DNA from: Schmidtea nova
Taxonomy: Eukaryota
DNA length: 64,000 nucleotides
Assembly (NCBI GenBank): GCA_044892505.1
Contig: CM097882.1
Span: forward strand, 157,790,001-157,854,000
Direction: 5' to 3'
A program made the translations under genes and the position numbers. This document shows positions 3,290-64,000 of the stretch, one piece after another; position 1 is the stretch's first letter, and each line of letters opens with the position of its first letter. Under the pieces are notes generated by a model. The model was not told the origin of the DNA and ran no database searches. It was given only the letters and a program-made list of their open reading frames with translations.

Positions 3290-4925
3290 GTAGAATATCA
3301 TCGCACGTGCGAAATTGTAAAAGTTTTCTAGGAGACCTGGAATGTCTTGGTACTATAGGATTTATTTAGAGGCTGCTTGAAATTCATGTAAACAGTCAAG
3401 GCAAATACGAAAGGAATTTCCAATTCTTTTTCATAATTTAATAGTATATGATCTACATCATATCCTTAAATACGGTTTAAGTGAGTTTAAAACTTAGAAA
3501 GTTTCTTGCATAGAGACGAGAAGTGAAAAGTTCTTAACTTTATCTGCAAGAATCGGTGGTTTAACTGTCAAATTTATCGATTCTTGTCAGTTTATAAATA
3601 GTTCTTTAAATGATGCTGTTAAAACTTTAAATAATTTTCATATAACACAATTAGAATTTAGAGGAACCATCATTATTAGTAAAGGTATTTTTTCCGTAAA
3701 ATATTGCTACTAGTCTGAAAGTGCTTTAGACAACTTTCGAATTGCCTCCAATTTAGGAAAATGTAACTGAAGCCCAGTACAATATGGCACAAGTTATATC
3801 GAGGGAAACAGATTGCGTTAATCTTTGTGATTATATGATGATTAATCTGAAATTTGATGTCTTCCTTCTTGCCAACTTTTTCCAGCAGTTTCGAACCAAA
3901 TCCTTAGCTCATAATCGTCTTGAACCTTTGAACTTTATAGGTATTCTAGGTATGTCTTGGAGTTCAGCTTTGATGACTTTAGATGAACCAATCAAGTTTA
4001 TCCAAAACATGGAAATGTATAATTTCTTTGAAGGTCGAATACATGGGAGATTTACATTTGTAAACAAAAATTTTGTAAAATCAAATCAAAGCACAGAAAT
4101 TTTATATATTGATATAAATAACTTATATATTTGGGCTCTTAGCCAGTATGTGAACTTTTCTTGGATTACCGATGGTAATGAACTAAATAATTTTATCAAT
4201 TTAATGAATGTAGATCTTGAATAACTTACATATGGTATAACATTTGAAGTAGATTTACAGATTCTCACATCTATTCATGATAAATCAAAAAGAAATATTC
4301 AAGACATACATTGATAAAAACACTAAACTTCAAGCAGAATCAATTAATACATTATATAAAAACAATTATAAACTTTTAAATAATTGTCTCTACGGTTTTA
4401 CCATAGAAAATCTTTAAAAAAAATAAATTTAAGGCTATGTAATTCGGTGACAAAATTAATTACATATGCATCTAAACCGGATTTTAAAAGAACATATAAA
4501 GTTGATGATCTAATCCAGGTTTTATTAAATAAAGATTCTGTATGTTTAGATAGACCTAGGTACATTGGACAAACCGTACTAGATCTATCTAAACTACGCA
4601 TGTATCAATTACAATATAATGATTTAGAAAAGTATCGTGTTGAATTTGATTGCGAAATAAATATAATTGCAGGCGACAGATTCATTCTTTTTAGAAATCA
4701 AAAGATTCAAGTTAGATGTGCTTTTACCTGCTTTGGTTAGAGATAATCTATTGGATACATCTAATCATGACACATCTCATCTCTTATGTTCAAGAGCCCT
4801 TGATTCCCTCATTGGTATATTTAAAGACGAAAATAAAGGGTGTAATATAAGGAATGGGTGTTCATTAGACCAAAATGCTACAGTCTTTTGGATGATAAAG
4901 GGATCATTAAATCTAAGGGTATAAT
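3290..4925 (+). pseudogene. degenerate protein-primed B-family DNA polymerase (Polinton/Maverick/adintovirus type)
   Basis: Fragments FPILFHNLIVYDLHHIL (~3417), EMYNFFEGRIHG and ILYIDINNLYIWALSQ (PolB motif A), SKPDFK and DRPRYIGQTVLDLSKLRMY; many stops and frameshifts. Confidence 0.8.
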
Positions 4926-41090: not shown

Positions 41091-42493
41091 ACCAGAATCT
41101 GATAATTTTAATGCATGATTTTTGTATAAGTCAGTTGAACTTAAATTTGGATCAGAAATTTCACTGAAACTATCTTGAAAGGTATGACTGATTTTATTTT
41201 TTTGGTAAATTTTGGTAGTTTATGTTATTATGATTTCTGTCAAATTGTTTCATAGTTAATAATATTTCTTGAAAATTTAAATGTTTATGATTATTTTTTA
41301 TAATATATAATTAGCTTGTGCTCCTTCCACTGTGTAATCGGTGGAAGGAGGCGACCCTAGTAGGGGTATCTAAGATGCCGCGTGGAGGGTTAGCCATCTT
41401 CGTAGTACTCGGTGCTACGAAGACGGTAGGGAATTGATGTTAAATTTTTGTTATTAATGCTGGCAACTATAGCCAGATTACTAATATTCTTACATTGTTA
41501 AATACTTCTATATAGTATGATTAGATAAATTTCATTGTTCACTACTATCAAGATTTATTCTGAACAACATAACATTTATTTGGATATTGCACATTGTGGG
41601 GTTTGCGCACGAGGATACCAAAAACTCTGTAAATATCTGATAGAGATTCCACAAATAGTTAGGATAGACGACATTCGATTCAATCTAATTGATCACGATT
41701 TTTGAGTACCTATTTTCAAGGCGCGTGTTGACGCTTATTTCCAAATTGTGATGTTAATAACAGATTAAGTATTCCAAATCGAGAGAATTAATGATGAGAC
41801 AGAAATTTCTTTTGCGGTACTATACTACATAAATAGATTGAGAATTGCAATTGACTATCATTCTAAACAATTGGGATAGATCGAGGAAACCTACATAATC
41901 CCTTACTCGTTGCGACATTGAGGGGTATCACATACATAAATCGATTACGTAAATCCAGATTTTTTATTTAAATTCAATTCTGATGGCAAGCGCGGATCTA
42001 GACGCTGTGTGGTAAATATCGTGACTGAAATAGCAAGATCAGTGTAGGTATTTGAAGCGGCCTACTCTGATGCATAGTAAATTGCTGATAGAACATTTAT
42101 TGAATTTGATCGACCACAAATATGAATGAAATTAAATGATTATCCTGATCCCTGTATATAGAGCAGAAGATCTCATTTTATAAATACAAATTATCCTAAT
42201 TGCTGTAGATAGCACAGGTATAAATAAATAAAACTAAATGAATTAAACTGATCACTGTACATAGCGACAGTGTTTAAAGAAATTTTTTATGTCTATTTTT
42301 CTTCTCTCATTTCCAACTTTCCATATAATAATTACGAGAGAATCATCATTCAAACGATGGCATAAAGTCTGTCGGGGTTATAAGATGGATTATCGAGTCA
42401 AAGTAATTCATAAAGAAATCTTAGCAACATTCATTTATCAATCATTTATTGTGAAATTTAAACAAGAAATAATAACTATTGATTTTCAGAACT

Positions 42494-43069
42494 ATGTTGT
42501 CAAATAACTCAAGCTCGCAAACTGAATTAGATAAGGCTTGGCTATTCATTCACAGCCTAGAGAAGGAAATCAATCTAACCAAAGAAAAGCTAAAAAATTC
42601 TGAAACAACAAATTCACATCTTCGCAAAAGCTGGTTTAGTCCAGAACAAATGAAAAGTCAACTTATAAAAAATCAACGCGCCCAACGAGCCGGAGAAGAG
42701 TACCGCATCGAGCTCGAAGTAACGAAAATAGAATTAAGGAAATGTCTGCGCTCGGTGACGACGTCATTCATTGACACTGAGTTGAAGAATCTAATACGGC
42801 CAGTTACTTATCAACGCTGGTCGGAAGAAAAAGCTGGATGTTCTATAGAAACTAATACCGAAGGGTTTCCGCAAATCCCTGAGGTTATAACAACAACAGC
42901 ACCGAAAATCTCATCTGCAATTGAAATTAAGAAAAACAAGAAAAACAAAATGGGCTCACGCCAAAGGAAGTGGAAAAAACAATTCGCTCAACAGAGAATC
43001 CATCACAATGATGAAATTCCAGAAATCGATCTGACGACAGATTTCATGACATGGGATGAGGATTTTTGA
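42494..43069 (+). CDS. LTR-borne ORF2 (intact)
   Basis: Acceptor GATTTTCAG ends at 42489, ATG at 42494; WFSPEQMK, LRKCLRSVT, LIRPVTYQRW, KNKMGSRQRKWKK. Confidence 0.8.
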   Translation: MLSNNSSSQTELDKAWLFIHSLEKEINLTKEKLKNSETTNSHLRKSWFSPEQMKSQLIKNQRAQRAGEEYRIELEVTKIELRKCLRSVTTSFIDTELKNLIRPVTYQRWSEEKAGCSIETNTEGFPQIPEVITTTAPKISSAIEIKKNKKNKMGSRQRKWKKQFAQQRIHHNDEIPEIDLTTDFMTWDEDF

Positions 43070-47902: not shown

Positions 47903-48116
47903 AGCTAAACCATTTTGTCGTAGCTCCTCAAAATATTTTTGCTTCCACAGAAGATTGACGAAAATAACTCTTTTGCCAGGTTCCATTGCCCTATTTTGAA
48001 CCTAGTTCTCTACAAAATTCATAAGTTCATCATATCTGCTGGGATTATGGGTGGGTTTTAAGTAATTCAGATAAATAGTTAATCATTAATTGAACGACTA
48101 CTGATGAGTACGTATA

Positions 48117-48296
48117 CTAGGGATTCCACGCCCATAACCATACATAACATGACTACTACACGCGTATGCCCTTGACTATTCCCTACTAGTCAAGTTGGTA
48201 CTGCATACGGTGGTGGAAAAATGATGGGCAGGTGAGCTTTGTTGCCAAAACTACTCCCCATTTATCTTCCCTCGGGTCCTTGCTGCCGATAGAAGG
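48117..48296 (-). ncRNA. conserved pseudoknotted cis-RNA element, copy D
   Basis: CGTATGC/GCATACG and CTTGACTA/TAGTCAAG stems; loop TAGGGA pairs with downstream TCCCTA. Confidence 0.7.
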
Positions 48297-48594
48297 TCTT
48301 ACGCATTTACATTCTAGGGATGTTCGCCCTACTGAATTTTGTACTACATATCCTTATGATCTATCATACGCTTTTCCCAATGACTTTCTTTAATTGATCT
48401 ACAATGTAATTAATCAGTCCCTGCGTAGAAACGGTCGGTTTGAGAAAATTTCGGGTGCGATTTTTTATTTCGATGATTTCATTGTTGTTATTTTATTTTA
48501 TTTAGTAACATCACCCGATGAGAGACAAAATTTACACAGAAAATACTTTTATTAAAATACTAAAATCAGGTTGTTATTTTACATAGATATTTTC

Positions 48595-49179
48595 CTAAGC
48601 GAATTCCAGACTGATCTCCTGAATCAACTCCGCTTCGGTTAAGGAGTTCAAGTGGTGGATTTGTTCGTCCAGGCGCTTTGCAAATTCTCGGCGACGACGA
48701 CGCTGTCGCGATCCCATTCGGTGTTTTCGAAGCTGTTGGTTTATGACCGGTGCTGACGCTATTGTTCTCGGGGGATCACTGAGAAAAATAGACAAGTCTT
48801 CCGTTGCGAGAGTGGGGGCCATGATGATTTCCTCTTCCGTCCCGCAAGCGACATCTTGGTGAGTGCATTGTATCCAGCGCTGAGCCGTGATCGGCCGGAT
48901 TAGCGCTCGTAATTCGGAGTCGATGTAACTTCTTGTTACTGCATTTAGGCAGTTTCGGAGTTCCCGCTGGACGGCATCTAGTTCCAATTTGGTTGCGGCC
49001 AGTGCTTCCTGCATCCGCTCAAGTTTTTTCGACTGGTCCTTCATTTGTTCGGGTGAGAACCACTTCGCTCTCAATTCATCATTGGCGACCGTGAGTCGCT
49101 TGATCTGTCGCTGCTGGTCCCTCAACTTCCTTTCTTGGATTTGTCCCATGATTTTCTTAGAATTTTCTGAAGTCGGCAT
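48595..49179 (-). CDS. LTR-borne ORF2 (intact, MPTSENS...)
   Basis: First ATG at 49179, 5 nt after acceptor ATATTCAG; WFSPEQMK, LRNCLNAVT, LIRPITAQRW, KHRMGSRQRRRRREF. Confidence 0.82.
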   Translation of the reverse strand: MPTSENSKKIMGQIQERKLRDQQRQIKRLTVANDELRAKWFSPEQMKDQSKKLERMQEALAATKLELDAVQRELRNCLNAVTRSYIDSELRALIRPITAQRWIQCTHQDVACGTEEEIIMAPTLATEDLSIFLSDPPRTIASAPVINQQLRKHRMGSRQRRRRREFAKRLDEQIHHLNSLTEAELIQEISLEFA

Positions 49180-49505
49180 GTTGTCTGAATATGATAACGA
49201 TAAATTCGCTGGAGGACCTATCACCAATGTTATTTTATTTAAACAACTATTTATTATTATTAAACGAGTTACATACTAATGTTTTTAATTATTGAGTTCT
49301 TTGCAAAATTATTTAACTACCTAATTATTGAAGGCTCAAAAAATTTATTGAACTAATTTGAGATTATTAAATGAAATTCCTAATGACTATAACAACTACA
49401 ATACTAAATATTAATAAATCTACATTACAACACTATTAACAAAATGAACATTTCAGATTTCTTTAAAACATTTATTTAATTTAGAACAGGTGGCCATTGA
49501 TGTAA

Positions 49506-49982
49506 CTAGTTATCTTCGGTCATTTTTCCTCGATACGAAAATATCGATCTGATTTGCAAATTTGTATGGATTCCTGTGCTATTGGACGAGGCCTGCTGAA
49601 AACGGGTTCTCTCCGCTTCTCGAAGGGGTCGTATGGCTGTATTGAACTTGAACCCCAATTCCTTGAAGGTAGAGGCTGGAATGAACCCCCAATAAATGAC
49701 ACATTTCGGGAATCCTCCCTTATCCAACATCAGAACGAACCAGGCGGCGTGCCATGATTCGAATTCCTCGTCTGGAATGATTGGCCAACTAGCGCATCCC
49801 CGGTACCATACGTGATGCCGTGGATGGTCCCATACCGTAAATGGACAGGCGATTTCGAGCTCTCGGCGCCATGCCCACATTTTTTGATGGATTTGCTGTA
49901 AAATCTCGAAAGGTGCCGGCTTTAATGGGCTAACTCGGGCTCGTTCTTGTCGTTTTTTGATAGTGTATCTATGCTTAGTCAT
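49506..49982 (-). CDS. LTR-borne ORF1 (158 aa)
   Basis: WYRGCASWP...WFVLMLDKGGFPKCVI resembles the copy A/B ORF1 core; acceptor AAATTCAG ~15 nt before ATG. Confidence 0.62.
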   Translation of the reverse strand: MTKHRYTIKKRQERARVSPLKPAPFEILQQIHQKMWAWRRELEIACPFTVWDHPRHHVWYRGCASWPIIPDEEFESWHAAWFVLMLDKGGFPKCVIYWGFIPASTFKELGFKFNTAIRPLREAERTRFQQASSNSTGIHTNLQIRSIFSYRGKMTEDN

Positions 49983-50876
49983 GATTCCAAAACGATGCTG
50001 AATTTTATAATAGTTACAATTTACATCAATAATTAATCATAGTAAATGTTATCTCTCATCGTGATACCCTTATTATTTGCCTTCCCCTTAGACCTTAGCT
50101 GAAATCAAGGAAAACTGTCGTTCGTTACGGTATGCATTACTCTCGTATCTACTTAGCTTTATCTGTTTACGATCAATATTATAGTTGAAAAATGGTGATT
50201 TGTCTGCTTGGATTTTTAAAATATTGATACCTCAACACGGAAGCTCTCTCCCGTCATGTATCCCTAGCTTATTCGAAAAACGCTCTTTTGTACCAAATGC
50301 GGTCGACAAAATTTTCTGAGGTTTATTAGACGTTTATCTAGCAACAATTCGTGCCTCCCCACGGTTAAAGAATTCTTTCATATCTTTAAGCTTTATCAAA
50401 AATTTATCGTCCCCTCCGTAGCCAAAACGATCAGAAAATAATTCCCCGGATTTGTTGGGTGTCCCATGTGCAAATCTCATCCATCACTAACAAAATTATG
50501 TTTTGTTATTTATTACTTTACCGTGTGTGGAGCCCTCGAGCACCACGCCACGGACGGACACCTTGGGAACCTAAAGCTCCCAACGGCGCAAGATTAATAT
50601 GATAGTTTAAATAGTTTAAATATAACATAAATCATGAGATAACTAATAAATTATAATATGATAATGACATACGAATACAACGATATCATAAACGTAAATA
50701 TACCAAAAATACCTCAATTGAATTCTGAAAATTTATTGATCAAAATCGGTCTAAACGGTGATCGTCGTCGGGGCAATGTGCAATCTAATGTGAATTTTTA
50801 GTTAAAGTCTAAATTTCAGTCTAACAAAGTCTACTGAAGTCTCACTCTAGTCAAAACGTCTCTTTTTATGAAAAAT

Positions 50877-50923
50877 CTGATCAGTATTTATACTGATCAG
50901 TCGTGTCTAGACCGACCAATCAG
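50877..50923 (-). promoter_or_regulatory. LTR promoter, copy D
   Basis: CTGATCAGTA-TTTA-TACTGATCAG palindrome containing TATAAATA on the minus strand, CCAATCAG box adjacent. Confidence 0.7.
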
Positions 50924-51491
50924 GTTCGGCCATTTTCAGGGTGGTTTTTAATTATTGTTCTTGATTCTAATTAATTTTTATTTTTTAGATTGTATTCTTC
51001 CTTGGAGGTCCGGGTTTCAAAAACAATTATTCAATAACAAGTACTTTTATTTTGTTTTAATTACCATTATTTGTATTTATTTTGTTTTTTAGATGTCTCC
51101 TGGGCCAGTTAATATCTCGAAATTCCTTTATTTTTATTTATAGCTTGTATTTAGTTTATCTATATTTTTACTATATTATTCCTTTCTTTTAATAAATAAA
51201 TATTCCCCTTTTTATCTTATTTTTCTCTTTTTTGTTTTAATTAATCCACTTTTATTTCACTGTTCCCTCTATTTGGCTGGCCCAACATCACTCGGGGACC
51301 CCTAAAATTGCGTCCCGCAATTAATTATACATTTACACCTATATCATCATACATAAAAATTAAGCAGATAAATGTCAATTTACATATACACAAAGAATCA
51401 CATAAGGTGATAGATTTTATACGTAAGCACAAAGTCATATTATTGTTAAATGTAAGTGGATCATACATAAAGTGAATGTAATATATCAGTT

Positions 51492-52145: not shown

Positions 52146-53207
52146 TTACACAATCGTCTCGTTTGGTTCGTAGAAACCTTCGTCCTGAGGCTCTACCTGA
52201 TTCGTGGGGAGTGGTATCCATACAACCCTGCTCCTCCACATTTCGACTTCATCTCGATACATGTGAGATATCTGGATTTCCTCGTCCAGCAAATATTCTA
52301 GGTAATTTGCTTGTTCTGTTAATGTTTCTATTTGCTTCTCTAATTCGATTACTTTTGTCTTTTGTTCGTCTTCCTTCATCATTTTTGTTACGGCTGCCGT
52401 TATACTTGCTTCTTTGGGTATTACTGATACTGTTACTCGTTTCTGTTTCAATTCTTCGTTTTCTTTCATCAAATTCGTTAAATTTTCCTCATAACTTTGT
52501 TTCTCTTCCTTTAACCTTTCTCTGGTTCTTTTTAGCTCTATTTTCTTCTGGGTAATCACTCCTTGATAACCATTTATATCTCTCTTCATCTCTTCTTCTT
52601 TCTGATTCCATATTCCGGTGAGCATAATTTTCAGTTGTTCTTGATTAGCAAGTTCTTCTCCCATTCTTTGAACTTGATAGGTTAGTCCTTTAATTTTCTT
52701 TGCTTGTTCCCGGATAAATTGCTGTCTCTTTGTATTCCATCTTTTATTCAACACTTCTTGGTGTATTTTCTGTTCTAACTCGTCTTTTAATTCGTCGATC
52801 TCTTTATATAATTTCCAGTCATCACTATAAGCTGTCCTTTCTATTATTTCTCTAGCTTTTTCGTAAGATTCTTTCGCTTCTTTCTTCCAGTATCTTGCTT
52901 GTTCTGTAATCGAATACATCTTGTGTTCAGCTTCCATCTGCTGTCTGTCTCTTTCCTCTCGTCGCTCTTTCATCATTCTCTGGTAATATTCCTTTTGTTG
53001 TTGTAGCACTTTGTATACTTCTTCTATTTTTTCTCGACTTCTTTGACTTGATCTTTCCGCTTCTTTTAATAATTCGGCTTGTCTCTCTATCTCCTCTTGT
53101 TTCCCATAATATGCATTGACCCATATTTCAATCTGTTCTCGATGATCGCTAATCGCTTCGGCTTGATGTATCGTAATTTCTTGTAAGCATACTTCGATAT
53201 TTCCCAT
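52146..53207 (-). CDS. accessory coiled-coil protein (353 aa)
   Basis: Long E/K/Q/R-rich helical ORF; T-tract acceptor TTTTTTTTTTGAAATTATAG 2 nt before ATG. Confidence 0.8.
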   Translation of the reverse strand: MGNIEVCLQEITIHQAEAISDHREQIEIWVNAYYGKQEEIERQAELLKEAERSSQRSREKIEEVYKVLQQQKEYYQRMMKERREERDRQQMEAEHKMYSITEQARYWKKEAKESYEKAREIIERTAYSDDWKLYKEIDELKDELEQKIHQEVLNKRWNTKRQQFIREQAKKIKGLTYQVQRMGEELANQEQLKIMLTGIWNQKEEEMKRDINGYQGVITQKKIELKRTRERLKEEKQSYEENLTNLMKENEELKQKRVTVSVIPKEASITAAVTKMMKEDEQKTKVIELEKQIETLTEQANYLEYLLDEEIQISHMYRDEVEMWRSRVVWIPLPTNQVEPQDEGFYEPNETIV

Positions 53208-53324
53208 TGCTATAATTTCAAAAAAAAAATTTTTTTAATCGGTTTATATATCAGTTATTTTTTGTTTATATAATAATTTTTGGGTATTTAACTGTACACA
53301 TTATTTACATGATCACTTCTCTTG

Positions 53325-54707
53325 TTACGTCAACCATCCTTTTCTATCCGCTTTCTCATTCCTTTCCATTTCTATGTATAGGGTGTCTGCATATAATCGT
53401 TCCCATAAGCTTTCTTTCGTTATAAACATCGGTTCTCCCGCTGCTAATCCACATTCTGTGGTTGGTTTCTCGCTCGTACTCGCATGTTTCTCTGTCTCAA
53501 AGAATTTTTCCACCGGTTTTGCTACACTTCTGATTCTTATAATGACTCCTACTTTCAAGGGCCATTCTACTAGGTCGTCGTATTCTCCTTTACATAGCGA
53601 GAAAAATATTGACACATGTGTTCCTCGTCCTCTTCCGTCTCCATTTGGGTATAGCTTCAATCTCATTTTAGCTCCGTTTCTCCATAAATAAAATGGTGGG
53701 CTTATTACTGCTGTTTTCGTCATATTTCTGGCCTCTGTTAATTTGTCTCTAAAATCTGTCACTTTCCACACATATGGTGCGATTGGTAACTTTTCCTCGG
53801 TATCCTGGGTGAGTTTGTTGTACTGGATTTTCATTCCTTTAGCCAGTTCTTCGATAGCTTTTATCTTTTCCTCCATCTTTTCTCGTGTTAGTTCGAATTG
53901 CTCTCTGGTTTCCAACAGTAGGTTTACCATTATCTTGTGTGACTCTATTTCTCTTTCTAATTTTTTGATTGTTTGTTCGGTTTCTTTTGTTGCTTCGTTT
54001 GTCATTTCCGCATGCTTTAGCAATGCTTCCTCCAGATGTTGTTTCATGGTTTTTTGCGTTCTTTTCTCCATACATCCCTGTTTGTTATAAGGACATTCCC
54101 TTGGTTTCTCCGTGCACACTTTCCAATGTTCTTGTAATTTTACTTCTACCGTTATCTCGCATTCGTTTGAACATATTCCTACATATTGTCTACATACTTT
54201 CTCCTCTTTTACATTCAGGTGTTCTTCTTCGATCTTTCTCCTCGTTTCTCGAGTTCCACAATATTCGCATAGACTTTCCTCTTCTTTACATTCATCTTTG
54301 TGCTGCTCTTTATTCTTTATAGTTATTTTTTGTTGGCATTTGTTACATTCAGTTCTCTTCTCTTCGCAGTTCTCCAGATGGTTCTCGAGATCGCGTATTT
54401 GTCCTTGCCATATACATGGTTGATTTATACATTCGGTTTTCGTGTTCATGATTTCTCTCTGAGTTTCTCTATCTGGTCCGGTTTCTTCGAATTTTATTTG
54501 TCCTTCTTTGCATTCTGGACATTCTGGTGGTCTTTTCATACTTAACTCGTGTATGCATTTGGTACATACTCTGCATCCGCATAGGGTTTGTCTTGGTTTC
54601 AATATTATGTTTTTACAATTTACACAAGTGAGTCTCTGACTCCATTTCCTGTTCTCGGCTCTCAAAATTTCGATTATCCGCTCTTCGGCTTTTCCTTCTG
54701 TATTCAT
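53325..54707 (-). CDS. TRAF: TRAF-family protein (RING, TRAF zinc fingers, coiled coil, MATH), intronless
   Basis: CVNC...CGCRVCTKC...CPEC RING; CxxxC/HxxxC zinc fingers; MATH motifs VWKVTDF, SPPFY, LYPNGDGRGRGTHVSIFF, EYDDLVEWP; acceptor CATTGTAG 1 nt before ATG. Confidence 0.92.
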   Translation of the reverse strand: MNTEGKAEERIIEILRAENRKWSQRLTCVNCKNIILKPRQTLCGCRVCTKCIHELSMKRPPECPECKEGQIKFEETGPDRETQREIMNTKTECINQPCIWQGQIRDLENHLENCEEKRTECNKCQQKITIKNKEQHKDECKEEESLCEYCGTRETRRKIEEEHLNVKEEKVCRQYVGICSNECEITVEVKLQEHWKVCTEKPRECPYNKQGCMEKRTQKTMKQHLEEALLKHAEMTNEATKETEQTIKKLEREIESHKIMVNLLLETREQFELTREKMEEKIKAIEELAKGMKIQYNKLTQDTEEKLPIAPYVWKVTDFRDKLTEARNMTKTAVISPPFYLWRNGAKMRLKLYPNGDGRGRGTHVSIFFSLCKGEYDDLVEWPLKVGVIIRIRSVAKPVEKFFETEKHASTSEKPTTECGLAAGEPMFITKESLWERLYADTLYIEMERNEKADRKGWLT

Positions 54708-54797
54708 TCTACAATGATATATACACTTGATTTGTTATCTATTTTTTGATTTTTCTTGTTTTTGTTTTACATATTTACAATTTTTCGCTTTATTTAT

Positions 54798-55154
54798 CTA
54801 CGGCTCGTTTGTTGAATCTGGTTCTGGGTCATTTTCTGATCTGTTTATTGCCCAATTTGTCCATCCATCCTCTGCTTCTTCTGTCTCTCCCATTGTTAAA
54901 CGGTCTATCTCTATTGCTTGTCTCTGATTTATGTCGCTCATCACTTGATTCTCTCTGGTGAGTTGCGTTATCAATCTCTGTTGCTCCTCGATTCTGTGGA
55001 GTTGTTCAAAACTATTATTATAACTTTCGGATAACAAATTCTGTTTCTCAATTAACTGATTTTGTAGTGAGTTGATTGTTCGTATTAACATGTCACACTG
55101 GGCTTTCCATCGCATAGCCATAGTAGTTTCTGCTATTTCTTCCTGTTCGTTCAT
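54798..55154 (-). CDS. small accessory coiled-coil protein (118 aa)
   Basis: Heptad-like Q/E/L pattern; acceptor TTAATGTATATAATTTAG 3 nt before ATG. Confidence 0.7.
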   Translation of the reverse strand: MNEQEEIAETTMAMRWKAQCDMLIRTINSLQNQLIEKQNLLSESYNNSFEQLHRIEEQQRLITQLTRENQVMSDINQRQAIEIDRLTMGETEEAEDGWTNWAINRSENDPEPDSTNEP

Positions 55155-55279
55155 TTTCTAAATTATATACATTAATCGTTTTCTCGATTTCTCTTTTTAT
55201 ATTTTTATAATATCGATACCCATACTATTACGGTAATGCATTGTTATTTACACTATTATTTACAGTCATATCCCGCCTC

Positions 55280-58200
55280 CTATATCACCATCACTGTCTT
55301 TCCTTCGTATCGCTCTTCATCTTCTATTTGTCTCCAAAATTCTTTACCTTTCGTCCTCCTTTGGAATTCTTTATGTACTTCTTCCGGTAATTCTATACTG
55401 TAGTTCATGATCTTTATATCTGGCCAATGTGTTATTGGTTTCTTGTTGAATACATCATATATCCATATTATTAATAATACTGTTATTACTGGAATAGTTG
55501 CTGCTAGTATTCCTAGACCAATTAGTTCTCTAACTTGTTTGTTTACGTCCATCTTCGTAATTTCACTCTGGTTAATCATTGGTCCGTATTGTCCCTTTAG
55601 TTTATTTAGTAGTTGTTCTCGTTCTTGTTGTTTTCTTTTAACTTCTTTAATTACTTCTTCCGGCGTCCATCTTGCGTAAGGGTCTATTACTACTTGTTCC
55701 GCGTCCATTTGTTTCGTTGTCTGACTTAATTCTTTAAATTCGAGTTTTCTCACTTTCCCTTTGGACGTTGAGTTTACCGGTGTGTAGTACGTTTCGCATC
55801 TTTCCTGCTGATTTCCCAGTATGTCCGTCTTTTCTATCGCACATATCTCGTATTCGCTATTGAATTTCAGATTTCTGATACTTATTTCCTCTTTTCCTTT
55901 CGCGTTTCCACAGTCTCGTGGCTGTCTTTCCCTTTGTTTCTGAACTATTACCCAACATATTTCTAACGTTTTATTGTCTATTCTCCATAGTATAAGAGTT
56001 GCTGTAGTATTCTTTTCGGTTTTTATTTGTATATCTTGGTTTTTCTGTTGTCCATTAGGTTTAAAGGTAGTGGTATACCTCGCTTTTCCTTTGTTCCGTT
56101 GTCTTCTACTTTTTCGCGTTGTCTTTCCAGCTCTTGTTCTGGTGGGTGTTTTATATAATCTGCATTCCAATTCATTTACTGTTATTTTGTCGCTTTTCCT
56201 GATCAGGCATATTTCGTACGTTTGATTGCTTTCTAATCCTTCTATCTGTATTGTGGTTGTTCCTCTGTTTGTTCGACATTGCGGCGGTGTATTCTGGTTT
56301 GTTTTCCTTTCCTGCTTCTTCCAGCATACGCCTTTGACGTCCGGTTCTATCCCGGTTAACTCTAACATTATAGTTGTTCTCCGTTTGGTGCGTTTATTTC
56401 TTCTTCCTCGTCGTATGAACTTTATTGTTTCCCCAGGTTGAAATGTTTTACAAATTGTCGTTCCTTTCTTGTGTCTTTCTTTTTCTAGTAAACATAGTTC
56501 ATACGTCCTGTCTGCTTTTACTTCTGATATTTTGGTTACTTTATTTGTTTTCCTTTTCCGACTCGTCTTTATTTCGCTTACGCCAATTTCTTCGTTGCTT
56601 CTGGCCCAACACTTTGGGTTGGTGTTTTGGGTGTCGTTCATCTCTGTTACTGCCATTGTGTCAATGTCTATCCCTTCTTCTAACCGTTTTAACATTGTTA
56701 ATATGAGTGCTAAACATAGTAATTCTGTTTGGTAGGTCACTCTTTCGGTCTCGTTTGTGGTTACTCTTGCTTCGGGCCTGTCTATGGTAATTTGTATAGT
56801 TGGCGTTGTTCGTCTGTCTATTGTCTGAGGTTTCTTGTTTTTTGTTCCTTGTGTCTCTGTTCTTCCACACTTTCCTACAACATAGTCTCCTTTGGATGAC
56901 TGCTGTATTGTTATGGTTACTTTGGGCGTTAGGTAGTTTGCACATGCTATTGTGTTGTGTGATCTTGGATTCTTTTGTTTTCTGATGGTGCATATTTTGT
57001 ACCAAGTATCTAGCTCTAAGTCATCGATCTCTATGATTCCTTGTTCATATTCTGAGATCCTGCAATCCATTGGACTATTTTGTCCCGATATTTTGTCCTT
57101 TTTTGACCAACATACTCGTTCGATTCCTTTTGCGTTTCCAATTTGTATTGTCGCTCTTTCTTCACATATCATTCCTTGAGTTGGACTAATTAAGGTCATG
57201 ATTACCGTTAGTAATAATAGTTCTGGTTTAAAGAATGGGTTTATTGTTTGTTTGTAGCCTGTTCTTTTTGCTTCGTTTTTATTTTTATAGTTGTTGTTTC
57301 TTTGTTTCCCAAATTCATTTTTCTTATCATTTTTCTCTGTGTCCCTTCCTTTCTCTTCACTGTCCTCTTCATCTGATAACTCATGATCCTCTGGATTTTC
57401 TCGAGTACTATCGTCGTCGTTTCCTGTATTGTCGCCTCCCCTTTGGTCGTTGAAAATGTCGTCCTCGACATTAATTGCTTCTATCATTTTTTCATACGTT
57501 ATGGTTGTGAGTATACTTGCTTCATATTCTTGTGTTACTGCCTGCTTAGGTATTTCCTTATCGGTTAATTTACAATCTAGAATCTCTTTCTTGGCTTTTA
57601 TCCAATTATTAAGGTACGTTTTCATTAGTTCTTTCCATTTGTCCGTACGTTCTGTTTCCTTTGGGTTGTTTGTGAATCGTAAATCTTTTCTTCTCATGAA
57701 GATATCTATTATCTTTGGCCATTTGTTTATTATTAATGCACACTTTATATACAAATTTTGGCCTTGTTCCATGCATTCGTTGATCCTGAATGCTGGTTCA
57801 TTGGTGTTTGGGTTCATCCAATTGAGTATTGCTTCAGTTAGTTCAGCGTTATGCATCATGGAATGTACGCTAGCTTTTTTAACTGTCCTTGTAAGGTATT
57901 CTATTTCCTCCTGATTTGTGATTGTTTTTATGAAATTTATCACCTCCCAATTGTGCGCTAACAACGCTACGTCTAGTATTGAGCTGTCTTTGTTAGTTCT
58001 TCCCATGAGTCCTGCACCTGCTTCGTACAGTTCCTGTAACACTCGGGTTTTTGTGTTCGCTCTTGCTGCGAATATCATGAGGGTATCTCCCTTTTTATCT
58101 TTCATGTTCATGTCACTTCCGCAATCTTGCATCAACCGTGCAATTTCGACTACCCTCCTATCTTTTCCTGCTCGTAAGGCTCTATGTATTGGCAATACTC

Positions 58201-61200
58201 CATTCTTTGTTAATAAGAAAGTCACTGGCATTTCTCTTTTTATGATCATCATATCGTTTTCATTGTAAGTTCCTTCCGCATATGCGTGTACCTTTTCCAC
58301 AATTGCTCCGAGTATCTCCAGTGTATGTTTAGAATTTTCGAATTCTGGTAATAGTTCTTTTGCTTTGTCCTGTATCGCATCTAACCTTTCTTGATATGGT
58401 ACTTCTGCGCTGAAAAGTGGTGTAAATTTCCTTTTGCTTTCTCTTTCCTTTCGACATAGGAATTGTTTGCATTTTTCGGGGTGGTTTAATATGTCTATTA
58501 GTTTGTCATACTCTTCTTCCACCGTTTTGTATTTATCTTGAAAATTGGATATATCTTTGTAAGTTATCGTCTTGGTTAGCGATTTTGCACACCATTCCCT
58601 AATTTTCCTGAATAATGCTTCTTTTTCACTTTCGAATTTACACTCCTCTTTGTTTTTGGAAATTGTAATATTTCTTCTGTCCAATAATATTAACAGTGTT
58701 TTCTGATCACAAACTAATTTTAATAGGAATTGTAATAACGCGTTTTGTCCTTTACTGTATACTTCGTTTATATTTAATACCCATGTATCATTTTCGGATC
58801 TTTTCCATTTTATTAGCTTGCGTATTGTTTTGCAGTTACCGATTTTTATTGCCTCCTTGATTATATCACCTTTGATCAGTTCGTCTATTTCCCAAGTGGC
58901 CTTCTCGATTATTCGTTTGAGCATTATCTGATTTGAGCTCCATATTGCGTGATTCAAGACTGTTTTGTTTTCTCTATCGCGCTCCGTCCAGTTGAAATCG
59001 GCATTTATCAAAAGGTCTATTATTGCCTTATCCGATTTGTAGATGGCTGCTACCATTAATGGTGTTTCTTGTTCGCTATTCCCAAAACCAAGGTGTTGGT
59101 TGGTTTCCTTTGCGATTTTTAGAAGTTCTTTTACCCTCTCTACTTCTCCCCATTTTATGGCGTTATGTAATGCTGGTTGTCCTCCTATGTCTTCTAGTGA
59201 AAGTATTTCTGGAATTTTCTCCAGTAGTTCTGAAATGACTGGTTTTGTTGGTAGTCCCCTTGCGTAATCACTAATTATAGACTGTATATCTCTTAATATA
59301 TCGTCTCTGACATGCCATTTTCCCATTATTTCTCTGGCTTTTAGTACAATTTCCTTGTTTCTTTTTCCTTGTTGATTGTTTTCTGCTTCGGTACTTTCAT
59401 TGGTTGCTCTGAGCATATTCATTCTGGCTGTCTGGGATCTAGTTATTATTCGTTCTTCTGGCGTTGTGGTTATTGTCTTTGGTACTTCTTTACATCTGCA
59501 TGTATTAACGTATATTGGTCGTATCAATGGTCGATTAACAAGTTTTACCTTCACATTGTTTTCCTTTTTGTATATGACTTCGTAAGGGCCTTTTCCTGGT
59601 CTTTGTAGTTTTTTAACGGTTCCTGGTATTATTTCTGGGGTTTCTATCATTACCCAATCTCCCGGCTTAAGATCATTTGTTTTAACATTTTTCTTTTGAT
59701 CGTGTAGGTCCTTGTAACTTTCCTGGTAAAACTTTATGTTTAGCTCTGCTGTCTTCCATATCTCTTGCATTCGTTCTTTGAATTTGGTGACGTAATCATC
59801 TTCCTCCATATATTGAGACAAAGGTGGTTGATATTCAAGATCTATTGGCATATTGCATTCCCTTCCATACATTAATTGAAACGGACTCAATTTTGTTGCT
59901 GCGTGTATCGACATTCGGTATGCCATTAGACATAGCTTTATGTACTCATCCCAATCTGTTTGGTGTTTGCTTACATAATTGGATAACATTCGAATCAATG
60001 TGCCGTTAAATCTTTCCGTTTGTCCATTGGTTTGCGGATGATATGGTGACGTTCGTAATTTGGCTATCCGGAAGTAATTTGTTACTTCATCTAATATTTC
60101 GCTCATGAAATTTGTTCCTTGATCTGTTAGTATTTGTTTCGGGGTTCCGTATCGACAACATATTTCCTCTACTAAAATTCTTGCTACCGTCTTTGCTTTT
60201 TGATCCGGCATCGCAAATGCCTCAGGGAATTTCGTCAAATAATCCGTTATTACCAATATATATTGATTCACATTTAAACTTTCTGGCAATGGTCCTATTA
60301 CATCCATCGCAATGGTAGTCATTGGTTCCGCTGGTATTGGCATGGGTTTTAAGGGATTTTTCCATTTCTTCCCACTATCCTTTCTTGTGGCACAAGTTAA
60401 ACAGTTCTTTATCCATTCCTTTACGTCCTCGTCCATTGTTGGCCAATAATATTTTTGTCTCATACGATCTAATGTTTTCTTATCGGACATGTGTCCTCCC
60501 AACTTTCCGTCGTGGTATTGAGTTATTATCTCTTTTCGTCTATTACCTGGCAGACACATTAATCGTTTTTCTCCATCCTGTATTAATAACCATCCTTTTT
60601 CTATTGTGTATCGATGTTGGTATTTCCTCATGTGTTCTTTTAACTCCGCATTGTCTTTGAATACATCCATATTCCGTGAGCTTAGGAATTCTATGATGGG
60701 TCTTAGTTCTTTATCCTCTTGCTGATCTTTCTTTAACTCGCTGAAATCCAAATCTTCTGCTATCATTATGCATATTCTTTGCACTTCTGGGTCTGTTAAT
60801 TCTGGAAACGTTAATCTTGACATGCAATCTGCGTTGGCATTCGCTTTTCCTGATTTGAATTTTATATCTGGTGAATATTCTTGTAATTGCATCGCCCATC
60901 TCATCAACCTGCTGGATGTTTCCTTATGTTGTCCTAGCCATACCAGTGGTTGATGATCCGTGGTTATGCATATAATGTGTCCCCATAATAGATATTTAAA
61001 GTGTTTTATTGCTAATATTATTGCCAATGCTTCTCTTTCCGTTACTGAATAATTCTTCTCGTGTTTCTTGAATGTTCTGCTATAATATCCGATTACCCGC
61101 TCTTTTCCCTCGTCATCATATTGTCCTAACACTGCTCCTGCTGCATATCCACTTGCGTCGGTTGCGAGTAAAAATGGCTTTTTGAAGTCCGGGTGAACCA

Positions 61201-63997
61201 ATATTGGTGCAGTTATTAGCTTATCTCTCAATGTTTCAAAGGCTGTTTGTTGTTCGCTTCCCCATATGAACGATACGTCTTTCTTTACTAGCTCCTGGAT
61301 TGGTTTTGCAATTCCTGCGTAATCCTTTATGAATTTTCTATAGTAACCGCATAATCCGAGAAATTCTTGGATCTGCGTTATCGTCTTTGGTACTGGACAT
61401 TCTTTTACTTTATCAATGTTTCTGGGATCTGGTTCCTTTCCTTTTGCGGACACAATATGTCCTAAGAATGTCACTTTCTCCTTTGCCCAATCGCATTTCG
61501 ATGGTTTGAGCTTGAGTTTCCATTGTCTCAGTCTAACAAATACATCTCTGATATCTTGGATGTGTTGTTCAAATGTGCTTGAGTAGATCAGTAGGTCATC
61601 AATGTAAACCATGCATTGTTTTATGCCGTGGGTAACGAAATTCATACATCTTTGAAATGATGCTGGCGCATTGGTTAGTCCAAATGGCATTTTCCTAAAC
61701 TGGTACAAGTCTCTTCCGATAGTGAAAGCAGTTTTCTCTTTGTCTTCCTCCTTCATTTTAATTTGCCAGTATCCGCTTTTCAAATCCAATGATGTAAAAT
61801 ATGCCGCTCCTTGTAATGTCAATAACATCTCGTTGATGTCTGGTAATGGGTATGTATCCCTTTTTGTAACTGCATTTAATCTCCGATAATCAATACAAAA
61901 TCGTTGTGTTCCGTCTTTCTTTTTCACCATTACAACTGGGAATTGCCACGGTGAGCAGCTTGGTTCAATTACTTCTGCGTCTAGCATTTTCTGTACTTCT
62001 GCTTCGGCTACTGATTTTTGCGCTTCAGCTAACTTGTATGGTCTTAACGCAATAGGCGTTTCGTCTGTTAGTGGAATCGTATGTAGTGTGACGTCGCATG
62101 TCCCTAGATCTAAATCGGATGCTGCGAATATGTCTTTATATTCTATCAGTAATTTTTCTAGCTGTTTCTTTTGATCCTCATTCAATAGTTGGCTATCAAT
62201 GTTCCAAGTGGGTTCTTCCTCTTTTACTCCTTCTTTTATTGGTATTTCGATATCTATCATTGGAGTTAGTTTACCTAATCTTTCATTTTCATAAATTATT
62301 TTATCCTCTTCATCGAAATTTACTACATTTATTGGGATTTCTCCGTTGTCATTCGCACTCACTAATCCCCTTGCCATTGGCAACGACTTTCTCTTTTCAA
62401 ATCTTTTACTGGGTTCAAAGATCATGTCACCTTCTATTGTAGGATCTATTTTTACGAAACATATTTTCTCTCTCCGTGCTGGTACGATTATTTGTTTCGA
62501 ACTTGTTACTTTTGCTTCTATTGCGCATATCTGTCCTGTCCTATCCTTTAATCTCATTGTTCCGAGGTCAATAACTATTTCTTTAAATAATGCTGGCATC
62601 AGATCCGTGCCTATAATGCATGGTACGCTTAGTGCTGGTATTACTGCTACGTACGTTTCGATTTCCGTGTTTTGATGTTTTATCTTTACCCACCATCTTC
62701 CGGCAACTTCTACTACTTCTTTACTGCATGCTATTACGTGAACGTTGGTTCTCTCAATATCCCGTCTTTGTTCTTGTGGTATCCATTTTATATCTATTGC
62801 TGAGATATTTGCTCCTGTATCAATCATCGCTTCAATTTCCCTTCCGTTAATTTCGATTGTTGTAGTTAATACTGGACCGGTGTTTGATGACATTACTGCA
62901 ATTGTATGTGAGTCTCCTTGCGGATCTACGCTTCTGCACCGTCTCGTTCTATAGTCTTCTGGTATCATAGGATATATGTTTGTCATCGGCATCATTTGCA
63001 TTGTATTTTGTCTCATCCCTGGTGTTGGTTCTTGGTACATGGTTGGTGGGGGTGCGTAACACTTCCACATTTCCGCTGGATTCTTTTCGACATACTGTGG
63101 TACTTGATTTTTAAATACTTGACCTCCTTCGTTATCATCATCATCGTCGTCACTGGAATCGTCTTGGGTTCTGTACCCTTTCATTCTTTCCCATAGTCCT
63201 TTTCTCTCTTTCTTTAGTTGTTGTCTTGCTTGTTCGTTATTCATTATCTTTTTAAATTTTCGTCCCACCTCTTCATCGGTTCCTTTCATTTTTGCCAGTA
63301 TTTTTAGGAGTCTCTTTATTCGGTGAATATCTTTTGAATGACCGTGTAATACCATTGTTTTAGCCAAAAATGGTAAGAATCCTACCACCAATTTCCAATT
63401 TACTTTCTTTTCTCTTTTATAGATGTCAAAACAGGCTAACATTTGCGTTATTATTACCCGTATTATTTGTATAATTAGTATAACACCAAGTATTCCTGCC
63501 ATCATTTGTCCAAATATTAAAAATCTTCCCCACATCGCTTTCATCATGTTTTCCGTTGCCTTCTTAAAGTGGGCTGGTGACAATAATAATTCATAATTTG
63601 GTCCACCTTGGTAATTTGTTCCTCCTGTTATTGTTACAATGCTGGATAACACCGCTTCCCTTCTTGCTGGAAATAGTATGTTTTGTCTCGCTGCCTCTAA
63701 GTCTTTTGCGCTATAGAATCCCATATTGCTTACATCTACGTCTTTAAATTTTCGTCCTTTTGATAGTTGCATCAATTCAAATTCCCTTGGTGCTGGTACC
63801 TCTGTTCTTGACGGAAACATAACCCAATTCCCGTCTGGTTTTTGGTATAATGGTCCATATGCGTTGCTGCAATTGAAAGGGTTTGGTTCGAAGCTTACTG
63901 GATTTATGATTCTTGTCACTGGTTGCACATATCTTACTTTCCCTTTGTATTCGATTTCTAGTTCGTTAGTACACTGACCTGGTTGTAATTTGGTCAT
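55280..63997 (-). CDS. pol: giant polyprotein (>2905 aa, 5'-truncated by window): glycoprotein-TM, protease, RT, RNase H, integrase, ankyrin repeats, signal peptide, 4 FN3-like repeats, TM
   Basis: DTG 62813-62821; YIDD 61595-61606; DAS 61151-61159; HHCC ~60390-60514; DVIGP/TDQG/GQTERFN core; GPY ~59585; ankyrin LH/PL motifs 57930-59190; no stops; frame open to the window edge. Confidence 0.95.
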   Translation of the reverse strand: MTKLQPGQCTNELEIEYKGKVRYVQPVTRIINPVSFEPNPFNCSNAYGPLYQKPDGNWVMFPSRTEVPAPREFELMQLSKGRKFKDVDVSNMGFYSAKDLEAARQNILFPARREAVLSSIVTITGGTNYQGGPNYELLLSPAHFKKATENMMKAMWGRFLIFGQMMAGILGVILIIQIIRVIITQMLACFDIYKREKKVNWKLVVGFLPFLAKTMVLHGHSKDIHRIKRLLKILAKMKGTDEEVGRKFKKIMNNEQARQQLKKERKGLWERMKGYRTQDDSSDDDDDDNEGGQVFKNQVPQYVEKNPAEMWKCYAPPPTMYQEPTPGMRQNTMQMMPMTNIYPMIPEDYRTRRCRSVDPQGDSHTIAVMSSNTGPVLTTTIEINGREIEAMIDTGANISAIDIKWIPQEQRRDIERTNVHVIACSKEVVEVAGRWWVKIKHQNTEIETYVAVIPALSVPCIIGTDLMPALFKEIVIDLGTMRLKDRTGQICAIEAKVTSSKQIIVPARREKICFVKIDPTIEGDMIFEPSKRFEKRKSLPMARGLVSANDNGEIPINVVNFDEEDKIIYENERLGKLTPMIDIEIPIKEGVKEEEPTWNIDSQLLNEDQKKQLEKLLIEYKDIFAASDLDLGTCDVTLHTIPLTDETPIALRPYKLAEAQKSVAEAEVQKMLDAEVIEPSCSPWQFPVVMVKKKDGTQRFCIDYRRLNAVTKRDTYPLPDINEMLLTLQGAAYFTSLDLKSGYWQIKMKEEDKEKTAFTIGRDLYQFRKMPFGLTNAPASFQRCMNFVTHGIKQCMVYIDDLLIYSSTFEQHIQDIRDVFVRLRQWKLKLKPSKCDWAKEKVTFLGHIVSAKGKEPDPRNIDKVKECPVPKTITQIQEFLGLCGYYRKFIKDYAGIAKPIQELVKKDVSFIWGSEQQTAFETLRDKLITAPILVHPDFKKPFLLATDASGYAAGAVLGQYDDEGKERVIGYYSRTFKKHEKNYSVTEREALAIILAIKHFKYLLWGHIICITTDHQPLVWLGQHKETSSRLMRWAMQLQEYSPDIKFKSGKANANADCMSRLTFPELTDPEVQRICIMIAEDLDFSELKKDQQEDKELRPIIEFLSSRNMDVFKDNAELKEHMRKYQHRYTIEKGWLLIQDGEKRLMCLPGNRRKEIITQYHDGKLGGHMSDKKTLDRMRQKYYWPTMDEDVKEWIKNCLTCATRKDSGKKWKNPLKPMPIPAEPMTTIAMDVIGPLPESLNVNQYILVITDYLTKFPEAFAMPDQKAKTVARILVEEICCRYGTPKQILTDQGTNFMSEILDEVTNYFRIAKLRTSPYHPQTNGQTERFNGTLIRMLSNYVSKHQTDWDEYIKLCLMAYRMSIHAATKLSPFQLMYGRECNMPIDLEYQPPLSQYMEEDDYVTKFKERMQEIWKTAELNIKFYQESYKDLHDQKKNVKTNDLKPGDWVMIETPEIIPGTVKKLQRPGKGPYEVIYKKENNVKVKLVNRPLIRPIYVNTCRCKEVPKTITTTPEERIITRSQTARMNMLRATNESTEAENNQQGKRNKEIVLKAREIMGKWHVRDDILRDIQSIISDYARGLPTKPVISELLEKIPEILSLEDIGGQPALHNAIKWGEVERVKELLKIAKETNQHLGFGNSEQETPLMVAAIYKSDKAIIDLLINADFNWTERDRENKTVLNHAIWSSNQIMLKRIIEKATWEIDELIKGDIIKEAIKIGNCKTIRKLIKWKRSENDTWVLNINEVYSKGQNALLQFLLKLVCDQKTLLILLDRRNITISKNKEECKFESEKEALFRKIREWCAKSLTKTITYKDISNFQDKYKTVEEEYDKLIDILNHPEKCKQFLCRKERESKRKFTPLFSAEVPYQERLDAIQDKAKELLPEFENSKHTLEILGAIVEKVHAYAEGTYNENDMMIIKREMPVTFLLTKNGVLPIHRALRAGKDRRVVEIARLMQDCGSDMNMKDKKGDTLMIFAARANTKTRVLQELYEAGAGLMGRTNKDSSILDVALLAHNWEVINFIKTITNQEEIEYLTRTVKKASVHSMMHNAELTEAILNWMNPNTNEPAFRINECMEQGQNLYIKCALIINKWPKIIDIFMRRKDLRFTNNPKETERTDKWKELMKTYLNNWIKAKKEILDCKLTDKEIPKQAVTQEYEASILTTITYEKMIEAINVEDDIFNDQRGGDNTGNDDDSTRENPEDHELSDEEDSEEKGRDTEKNDKKNEFGKQRNNNYKNKNEAKRTGYKQTINPFFKPELLLLTVIMTLISPTQGMICEERATIQIGNAKGIERVCWSKKDKISGQNSPMDCRISEYEQGIIEIDDLELDTWYKICTIRKQKNPRSHNTIACANYLTPKVTITIQQSSKGDYVVGKCGRTETQGTKNKKPQTIDRRTTPTIQITIDRPEARVTTNETERVTYQTELLCLALILTMLKRLEEGIDIDTMAVTEMNDTQNTNPKCWARSNEEIGVSEIKTSRKRKTNKVTKISEVKADRTYELCLLEKERHKKGTTICKTFQPGETIKFIRRGRRNKRTKRRTTIMLELTGIEPDVKGVCWKKQERKTNQNTPPQCRTNRGTTTIQIEGLESNQTYEICLIRKSDKITVNELECRLYKTPTRTRAGKTTRKSRRQRNKGKARYTTTFKPNGQQKNQDIQIKTEKNTTATLILWRIDNKTLEICWVIVQKQRERQPRDCGNAKGKEEISIRNLKFNSEYEICAIEKTDILGNQQERCETYYTPVNSTSKGKVRKLEFKELSQTTKQMDAEQVVIDPYARWTPEEVIKEVKRKQQEREQLLNKLKGQYGPMINQSEITKMDVNKQVRELIGLGILAATIPVITVLLIIWIYDVFNKKPITHWPDIKIMNYSIELPEEVHKEFQRRTKGKEFWRQIEDEERYEGKTVMVI

Positions 63998-64000
63998 TGT

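What the first reader, a model, noticed from the sequence alone, without database searches (positions are those of the whole stretch)
63330..63997. Chuvirus-like fusion glycoprotein placed upstream of, and in frame with, Pol
CTNELEIEYKGKVRYVQPVTRII...C...PLYQKPDGNW...MGFYSAKDLEAARQNILFPARREAVL followed by a TM matches, from memory, the C-terminal half of chuvirus-type (gB-like, class III) glycoproteins, which are known to be captured by BEL/Pao elements. Here it sits in a Gypsy-order element and N-terminal to the protease, whereas env normally lies 3' of pol in a separate ORF. Pol would be made as the cytoplasmic tail of the envelope protein, which points to an independent env capture and possible infectivity.
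Basis: partly seen in the sequence, partly recalled or inferred. Interest (0 to 1): 0.86.

Follow-up and report, generated by a model that had tools for sequence, protein, structure and literature searches.

The report
Burro retrotransposon with built-in envelope gene
This is a giant jumping gene, most likely of a planarian flatworm, whose single 5,140-codon reading frame carries a protein predicted to fold like a herpes- or chuvirus-type membrane-fusion protein between its capsid and enzyme genes, a layout already published, plus a likely second surface protein at its far end that I did not find described.

Summary
Window 63330-63997 (minus strand) is the C-terminal part of a chuvirus/gB-type glycoprotein (PF24664, E 3.6e-72 for the whole domain). 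Its AlphaFold model matches chuvirus G (E 4e-37) and herpes gB (E 1e-13). It lies inside one 5,140-codon frame: gag - BCL2-like - internal signal - Env - TM - PR - RT - RH - IN - ankyrin, in a 28.4-kb LTR element with hundreds of search matches. The Env-to-protease junction is open in 34 of 39 other copies, its breaks are private, and Env is as conserved as RT (shared dN/dS 0.02).

The layout is published: Burro-like planarian Gypsy elements with env in frame between gag and pol, including a 5,140-aa ORF1 (PMC6431247), and gB-type GAG-ENV-POL flatworm elements (PMC13524379).

Not found in my literature searches: a second signal - fibronectin-III-like ectodomain - TM cassette after integrase. 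It is under purifying selection, duplicated whole in a sister family, and echoed in distant relatives. The likely mechanism is a flavivirus-like membrane-threaded polyprotein, with Pol made on Env's cytosolic tail. Expression, fusion and infectivity are untested.

The parts
55280..64000 (-). 3' 2,906 codons of ORF1. The whole frame is 5,140 codons and begins 6.7 kb beyond the window end with gag (3 CCHC knuckles), ubiquitin-like and BCL2-like stretches, an internal signal sequence and the N-terminal 400 residues of Env
63518..64000 (-). C-terminal part of the Env ectodomain (codons 2235-2395); class III fusogen fold predicted
63443..63517 (-). Env transmembrane anchor (codons ~2396-2420), followed by a basic cluster
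63341..63403 (-). Second, weakly hydrophobic segment kept in relatives; likely an interfacial helix on the cytosolic face, not a second TM
   Evidence: rough insertion score +2.2 to +7.2 in 12 of 12 proteins scored, against -1.4 to +2.1 for the anchor
62894..63322 (-). Linker joining Env to the protease, open and under purifying selection
62591..62863 (-). Aspartic protease (DTGA)
   Evidence: PF00077 E 2.8e-8
62123..62542 (-). dUTPase-like segment between PR and RT (weak)
   Evidence: dUTPase/dCTP deaminase chains, E 0.06-0.12
60875..61927 (-). Reverse transcriptase and RNase H
60035..60550 (-). Integrase (H2C2 finger and core)
58901..59170 (-). Ankyrin repeats
   Evidence: PF12796 E 7.7e-14
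57173..57226 (-). Second internal signal-like sequence (predicted)
55523..57172 (-). Second ectodomain: four Cys-containing repeats of ~90 residues with a predicted fibronectin type III-like fold, and 7 N-glycosylation sequons
55457..55522 (-). C-terminal transmembrane anchor and start of a ~60-residue tail
54798..55157 (-). Small accessory ORF (119 codons), constrained among copies
53325..54734 (-). Accessory TRAF-like ORF (zf-TRAF, MATH)
52146..53234 (-). Accessory ORF of coiled-coil appearance (362 codons), no Pfam family
48037..51287 (-). 3' LTR, 3.25 kb, 99.8% identical to the 5' LTR beyond the window; TG...CA ends, 4-bp target-site duplication

Best explanation
This is a Burro-like giant Gypsy element whose gag, chuvirus/gB-type env and pol are one open reading frame; the protein is likely threaded through the ER membrane like a flavivirus polyprotein, so that Env would be an envelope fusion protein and Pol would start as its cytosolic tail. 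Shown: one frame, the domain order, recent copying, and strong purifying selection on Env and the Env-Pol junction. Predicted: the class III fold of Env and the FN3-like fold of the second ectodomain. Inferred steps: (1) Gag and the Ubl/BCL2-like region are made in the cytosol. (2) An internal signal (codons ~1812-1835, ending A-T-A) sends Env into the lumen, and signal peptidase frees its N-terminus. (3) One TM stops transfer, so PR-RT-RH-IN-ankyrin are cytosolic. (4) A second signal sends the FN3-like ectodomain into the lumen, anchored by the last TM. (5) The element's own protease releases Gag and the enzymes on the cytosolic side. Gag, Env and Pol would be made 1:1:1, and Pol would reach budding particles on Env's tail rather than as Gag-Pol. 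Env-mediated entry into other cells of the same animal is the likely selected function.
For: One 5,140-codon frame. Env model pLDDT 87.6; best Foldseek hits are chu-like virus G, E 4e-37, and herpes gB, E 1.3e-13, in the PDB. Env TM and protease share an open frame in 34 of 39 other copies, and gag to the last TM in 8 of 39. The 8 breaks between TM and end of PR, in 7 copies, are all private. Shared-variant dN/dS: Env 0.019 (9 N/129 S), RT-RH 0.020, linker 0.04. Env is followed by a protease in the same protein in 11 of 15 long relatives scanned and in three further families in this genome. A signal-like segment stands directly before Env in all 7 relatives where the script located the Env start, and in this element and families B-D. 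The post-anchor hydrophobic segment scores as non-spanning in 12 of 12. The sister family duplicated the C-terminal cassette as a whole signal-ectodomain-TM unit, which preserves topology. Same landmarks as published Burro.
Against: No expression, protein, particle or fusion data were obtained. Topology rests on hydropathy and a rough recalled insertion scale, not a trained predictor; on that scale this element's own two signal segments did not pass the threshold, as may be expected for short cleaved signals. The Env ectodomain has only one N-glycosylation sequon. The 39 copies are the best-scoring of 782 candidates, so they over-represent young copies. Purifying selection on Env in a fused frame shows a needed protein, not infectivity.
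Confidence: 0.7

Rival explanations
1. Env is kept for an intracellular job: anchoring the polyprotein to membranes or budding into and escaping from ER or vesicles within one cell, with no cell-to-cell spread.
For: Everything shown here (selection, fold, topology) fits this too. Only one sequon in Env. Fusion to Pol means the frame must stay open whatever Env does.
Against: An open frame alone would not hold amino-acid change at RT-like levels (shared dN/dS 0.019 against 0.098 for the gag-env spacer). The whole class III architecture and its cysteines are kept. The second ectodomain with 7 sequons suggests surface display.
Confidence: 0.18
2. The DNA frame is continuous, but Env and Pol are normally made separately through splicing, internal initiation or early cleavage, so Pol is not functionally an Env tail.
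For: Other gB-type elements have env before pol with gaps allowed (search criteria in PMC13524379). RNA was not available to exclude it.
Against: No shared stop or frameshift at the junction in 39 copies. The linker is under purifying selection within and between families (0.04 and 0.045). The fused state is kept in relatives at 28-40% Env identity.
Confidence: 0.1
3. Chance in-frame insertion of a chuvirus endogenous viral element, or an assembly artefact, in one copy.
For: Chuvirus G fragments are common endogenous elements (PMC7642597, search listing and start of abstract only).
Against: At least 40 copies at 97-100% identity, four families in this genome, many outside relatives, and even cover of the stretch by contigs of four public runs.
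Confidence: 0.01

Closest known systems
Burro / GYPSM1 giant Gypsy elements of planarians, and the Burro-like element with a 5,140-aa ORF1 (Arkhipova and Yushenova 2019, PMC6431247; section 7 read in full)
   Same: Giant LTR element; one ORF1 with gag, Ubl, BCL2-like, env in frame between gag and pol, dUTPase-like between PR and RT, ankyrin; TRAF/MATH in a separate accessory ORF; ORF length 5,140 codons.
   Different: The paper gives two CCHC knuckles and an upstream MATH ORF for its 5,140-aa element; here there are three knuckles and the TRAF ORF is downstream, so identity is likely but not shown. The paper links env to gypsy Env and mononegavirus glycoproteins; here the fold is class III (gB/chuvirus). 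The section mentions no second signal-FN3-like-TM cassette and no topology.
GAG-ENV-POL errantiviruses with HSV/gB-type ENV in Platyhelminthes, Nematoda and Bryozoa (eLife RP108449, PMC13524379; passages and supplementary table 1 rows seen)
   Same: Ty3/Gypsy pol, gB-type class III env, env before pol; nine flatworm elements listed, six from Schmidtea mediterranea.
   Different: Main text has no occurrence of 'polyprotein', 'in frame', 'Burro' or 'fibronectin'. It treats the order of ORFs, not a single membrane-threaded protein.
BEL/Pao elements with captured chuvirus glycoprotein (Dezordi et al. 2020, PMC7642597; search listing, start of abstract and citation in PMC13524379)
   Same: Same glycoprotein family (PF24664).
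   Different: Belpao pol with env downstream. A relative with DUF5641 in front of the glycoprotein (P0052; DUF5641 as a BEL/Pao marker is recalled) falls outside the env-then-protease branch.
Flavivirus / pestivirus polyproteins (recalled)
   Same: Works-like comparison only: one ORF, internal signals, alternating cytosolic and luminal parts, host signal peptidase plus viral protease.
   Different: No homology claimed; class III instead of class II fusogen; reverse-transcribing and integrated.

Membership tests
Burro-like giant Gypsy elements | LTR element of about 25-30 kb with multi-kb LTRs, many copies | tested here: met
   28.4 kb, 3.25-kb LTRs 99.8% identical, 4-bp TSD; 782 candidates, 40 of 40 scored at 97-100%
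Burro-like giant Gypsy elements | Single ORF1 of about 5,000 aa from gag (retrotrans_gag, CCHC) to PR-RT-RH-IN | tested here: met
   (Retrotrans_gag E 0.0015, below cut-off; zf-CCHC E 5.6e-8)
Burro-like giant Gypsy elements | env in frame between a BCL2-like region and PR | tested here: met
   Env; BCL2-like profile hits Bax E 0.0015 and Bcl-xL E 0.013 (weak, mostly the GGW motif)
Burro-like giant Gypsy elements | Ankyrin repeats; MATH/TRAF in ORF1 or an accessory ORF | tested here: met
Burro-like giant Gypsy elements | Ubi/SUMO-like and dUTPase-like motifs | tested here: inconclusive
   Ubiquitin_4 E 0.035, dUTPase chains E 0.06-0.12: right places, weak scores
Burro-like giant Gypsy elements | Sequence identity with deposited Burro/GYPSM1 and a planarian host | not testable with these tools
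   No Repbase or named planarian genome was available; the host is inferred from the architecture and the AT-rich 1.25-Gb genome
Class III fusogens (chuvirus G / herpes gB type) | Family sequence signature with conserved cysteines | tested here: met
   PF24664 243.7 bits; 5 invariant and 8 nearly invariant Cys in 83 sequences; profile reaches gB at E 0.0012
Class III fusogens (chuvirus G / herpes gB type) | Elongated fold with long central helix matching gB | tested here: met
   48-residue helix (316-363) in the model; Foldseek gB E 1.3e-13, TM 0.44, rmsd 13 over the whole chain; chu-like G TM up to 0.72
Class III fusogens (chuvirus G / herpes gB type) | Trimer formation and membrane fusion | not tested
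   Three copies exceed the size limit of the complex tool; fusion needs a bench assay
BEL/Pao with chuvirus env | env downstream of pol | tested here: not met
   env is upstream of PR
Fibronectin type III domain (second ectodomain) | FN3 beta-sandwich fold | tested here: inconclusive
   All-beta model, pLDDT 75.9; nearly all top rows are FN3 domains, best Z 7.9, rmsd 4.2 over 81 residues, best Foldseek E 6.6e-3; Atlas FN3 clusters at 0.77 (lead only); no Pfam fn3 hit

The most novel reading that the evidence does not exclude
Burro elements are active enveloped retroviruses of a new design: one flavivirus-like polyprotein yields a class III fusogen and a separate FN3-type surface glycoprotein (receptor binder or host-receptor decoy, doubled in a sister family), and Pol is packaged on the envelope protein's tail instead of as Gag-Pol.
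Probability: 0.3. Interest if true: 0.72.

Novelty: already known. Interest (0 to 1): 0.36.

Why it matters
The headline (env in frame between gag and pol in a Gypsy element) is in print, so it is no discovery. This check adds three things: evidence that the fused Env is held as tightly as reverse transcriptase, a testable membrane topology, and a second membrane-protein cassette after integrase that I did not find described. If Burro elements spread between cells with two surface proteins from one polyprotein, that would be a separate solution to building an enveloped reverse-transcribing virus. It would also bear on how transposons reach stem and germ cells in planarians.

Tried and rejected
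Expression: no RNA holder was listed. The four runs of unknown kind (one study) gave contigs covering all 30 bins, and six single-contig low-depth joints, none repeated between runs; this says nothing on transcription or splicing. One search's break counts for gag and the spacer were inflated by non-homologous flanks of three truncated copies and are replaced. One search's '1 of 33 unbroken' and its shared 'frameshifts' at codons 615-619 and 4573-4578 look like paired, compensating gap placements; direct ORF counts are used instead. Homologue searches: one hit for Env among near-length proteins, none for the second ectodomain among longer proteins (weak evidence). The second ectodomains of the different families show no significant BLASTP similarity to each other except families B and C. 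The four-unit profile hit tenascin FN3 only at E about 1, and the 28-unit profile hit nothing. No Pfam family for the family B/C ectodomains. No Atlas hit for the BCL2-like part. The primer-binding site resembles a proline tRNA end (recalled), but a pattern search for a matching tRNA gene found none, so the primer is unassigned. The maximum-likelihood Env tree did not finish; FastTree was used. Grohme et al. 2018 was not retrievable under the id tried. Earlier scan notes: nothing found.
Full report
Observation. The quoted motifs are at window 63330-63997 on the minus strand, in a frame that is open from the window end to 55283. Pfam places Monjiviricetes_fusion, protease, RT, RNase H, integrase and ankyrin repeats in that order. 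With the next 30 kb of the assembly, the frame is 5,140 codons stop to stop, first Met at codon 154. It starts with a gag (Retrotrans_gag E 0.0015, three CCHC knuckles). The whole glycoprotein (codons 1815-2434) scores E 3.6e-72 against PF24664.

The element. Two 3.25-kb LTRs, 99.8% identical, with TG...CA ends and a 4-bp target-site duplication, bound a 28.4-kb element. Accessory ORFs are a RING ORF before ORF1 (E 8.7e-12), three after it including a TRAF-like one, and two in the LTR without a Pfam family. A DNA search gave 782 candidates; all 40 scored were 97-100% identical. Three other families with the same gag-env-pol frame occur in the genome: B and C (3,401 and 3,393 codons) and D (5,685 codons). 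One copy of each was read.

What the glycoprotein is. An AlphaFold model from an 83-row alignment has pLDDT 87.6 and a 48-residue central helix. Foldseek gives chu-like virus glycoproteins first (E 4e-37; TM up to 0.72) and herpesvirus gB in the PDB (E 1.3e-13; TM 0.44, rmsd 13 over the whole chain). A sequence profile reaches gB at E 0.0012.

Is the fusion real? I read 20 kb of each of the 39 other best-scoring copies; these favour young copies. By motif, the Env anchor and the protease share an open frame in 34 of 39, Env C-terminus to RT in 28 of 39, and gag to the last TM in 8 of 39. Between the anchor and the end of PR there are 8 breaks in 7 copies, none shared (this span is longer than the motif test, hence 32 against 34). 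Among variants shared by two or more copies, dN/dS is 0.019 for Env (9 N, 129 S), 0.020 for RT-RH, 0.04 for the linker and 0.098 for the gag-env spacer; private variants are far less constrained (0.19 in Env). Between families, Env has dN/dS 0.034 (B vs C, dS near saturation). Outside this genome, the all-protein search gave 981 hits at E 0.001 or better. Of 15 long hits scanned, 11 carry a protease domain after Env, at 28-46% Env identity. In a FastTree tree of 116 Env domains, the 14 env-then-protease rows and 4 rows that end in or soon after Env form one branch (SH-like 99), apart from the stand-alone glycoproteins and from a row with DUF5641 in front. The tree is midpoint-rooted, has long branches and had no one-clade test, so it suggests a lineage separate from BEL/Pao captures but names no donor. 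The second refutation test, a shared stop or frameshift, is also not met.

How it likely works (inferred). A short hydrophobic segment ending in small residues lies directly before Env here and in relatives. One strong TM follows the ectodomain, then basic residues. The next hydrophobic segment scores as non-spanning in 12 of 12 proteins on a rough recalled scale; 3 of 15 were skipped because the motif failed. That gives cytosolic Gag, luminal Env and cytosolic PR-RT-RH-IN. Signal peptidase would cut Gag from Env during synthesis, so Pol cannot be packaged as Gag-Pol and would travel on Env's tail until the element's protease frees it; stoichiometry would be 1:1:1. None of this was observed. 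No RNA run was available, and the runs laid cannot show transcripts.

A second membrane protein. After integrase and ankyrin the frame has another signal-like segment, 550 residues with 18 Cys and 7 sequons, and a C-terminal TM. The ectodomain holds four ~90-residue repeats. A model of one repeat (28 rows, pLDDT 75.9) matches fibronectin type III domains in nearly all top rows, though only at Z 7.9 and Foldseek E 6.6e-3; no Pfam hit. It is constrained but evolves faster than Env (shared dN/dS 0.31; 0.18 against family D; 0.13 for B vs C). Family D carries the signal-ectodomain-TM unit twice in tandem. Families B and C and relatives P0002, P0007 and P0152 also end in hydrophobic segment - ectodomain - TM, and P0013 does so less clearly. 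These ectodomains are not alignable to this one, so common ancestry is not shown. Its role (attachment protein, decoy or entry blocker) is open.

Comparison with what is known. [quoted passage not shown] It includes a Dugesia tigrina element with a 5,140-aa ORF1 and MATH in an accessory ORF. The landmarks are recovered here (BCL2-like E 0.0015; Ubl E 0.035; dUTPase-like E 0.06-0.12; the last two weak). Two details differ (three knuckles, TRAF ORF downstream), so this is probably the same or a sister family. PMC13524379 (passages; supplementary table 1 rows) reports gB-type GAG-ENV-POL elements in flatworms, nematodes and bryozoans. PMC8532177 (passages) shows BURRO1 RNA rises after PIWI knock-down. 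PMC13238120 (passages) adds nothing on structure. Searches for the second cassette or the topology (and in-paper) found nothing. However, Grohme et al. 2018 and its supplement, the Repbase entries and Fig. 2A of PMC6431247 could not be seen and may annotate it.

Verdict. Interest 0.36, carried mostly by the selection evidence, the topology model and the second surface-protein cassette.

Noticed in passing
L089:1638-4592 (family D, minus strand): The sister family has two tandem signal - FN3-like ectodomain - TM cassettes at the end of a 5,685-codon ORF; the second is about 31% identical to this element's.
   Followed up: partly
P0002, P0003, P0004, P0006, P0010, P0016, P0152: Relatives carry several aspartic-protease-like domains in tandem after Env (six stretches in P0152, one or more also after integrase), some with C2H2 fingers between them.
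   Followed up: no
P0152 residues ~2060-2110: An extra pair of hydrophobic segments flanking a ~15-residue loop lies between Env and Pol; it would keep Pol cytosolic and looks like a vestigial signal-TM cassette.
   Followed up: no
window 63518-64000 and L001:518-2200 against family D: Between this family and D, Env is 79% identical with saturated synonymous sites while RT-RH is 99% identical, suggesting faster divergence or exchange of env.
   Followed up: partly
window 48595-50036 (3' LTR) and L002:785-2223: Each LTR contains two ORFs (176 codons, and 226 or 198 codons) with no Pfam family; family D has counterparts at the same place.
   Followed up: partly
L001:9437-9898: RING (C3HC4) ORF between the 5' LTR and ORF1, followed by several tandem-repeat arrays in the leader.
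   Followed up: partly
P0007: An env-pol polyprotein of this kind is labelled as a Flavobacteriaceae MAG protein in NCBI; probably animal DNA in a bacterial bin.
   Followed up: no
window 42476-43066: A 197-codon plus-strand ORF outside the element shares a short motif with the LTR ORF, perhaps a remnant LTR of a related family.
   Followed up: no
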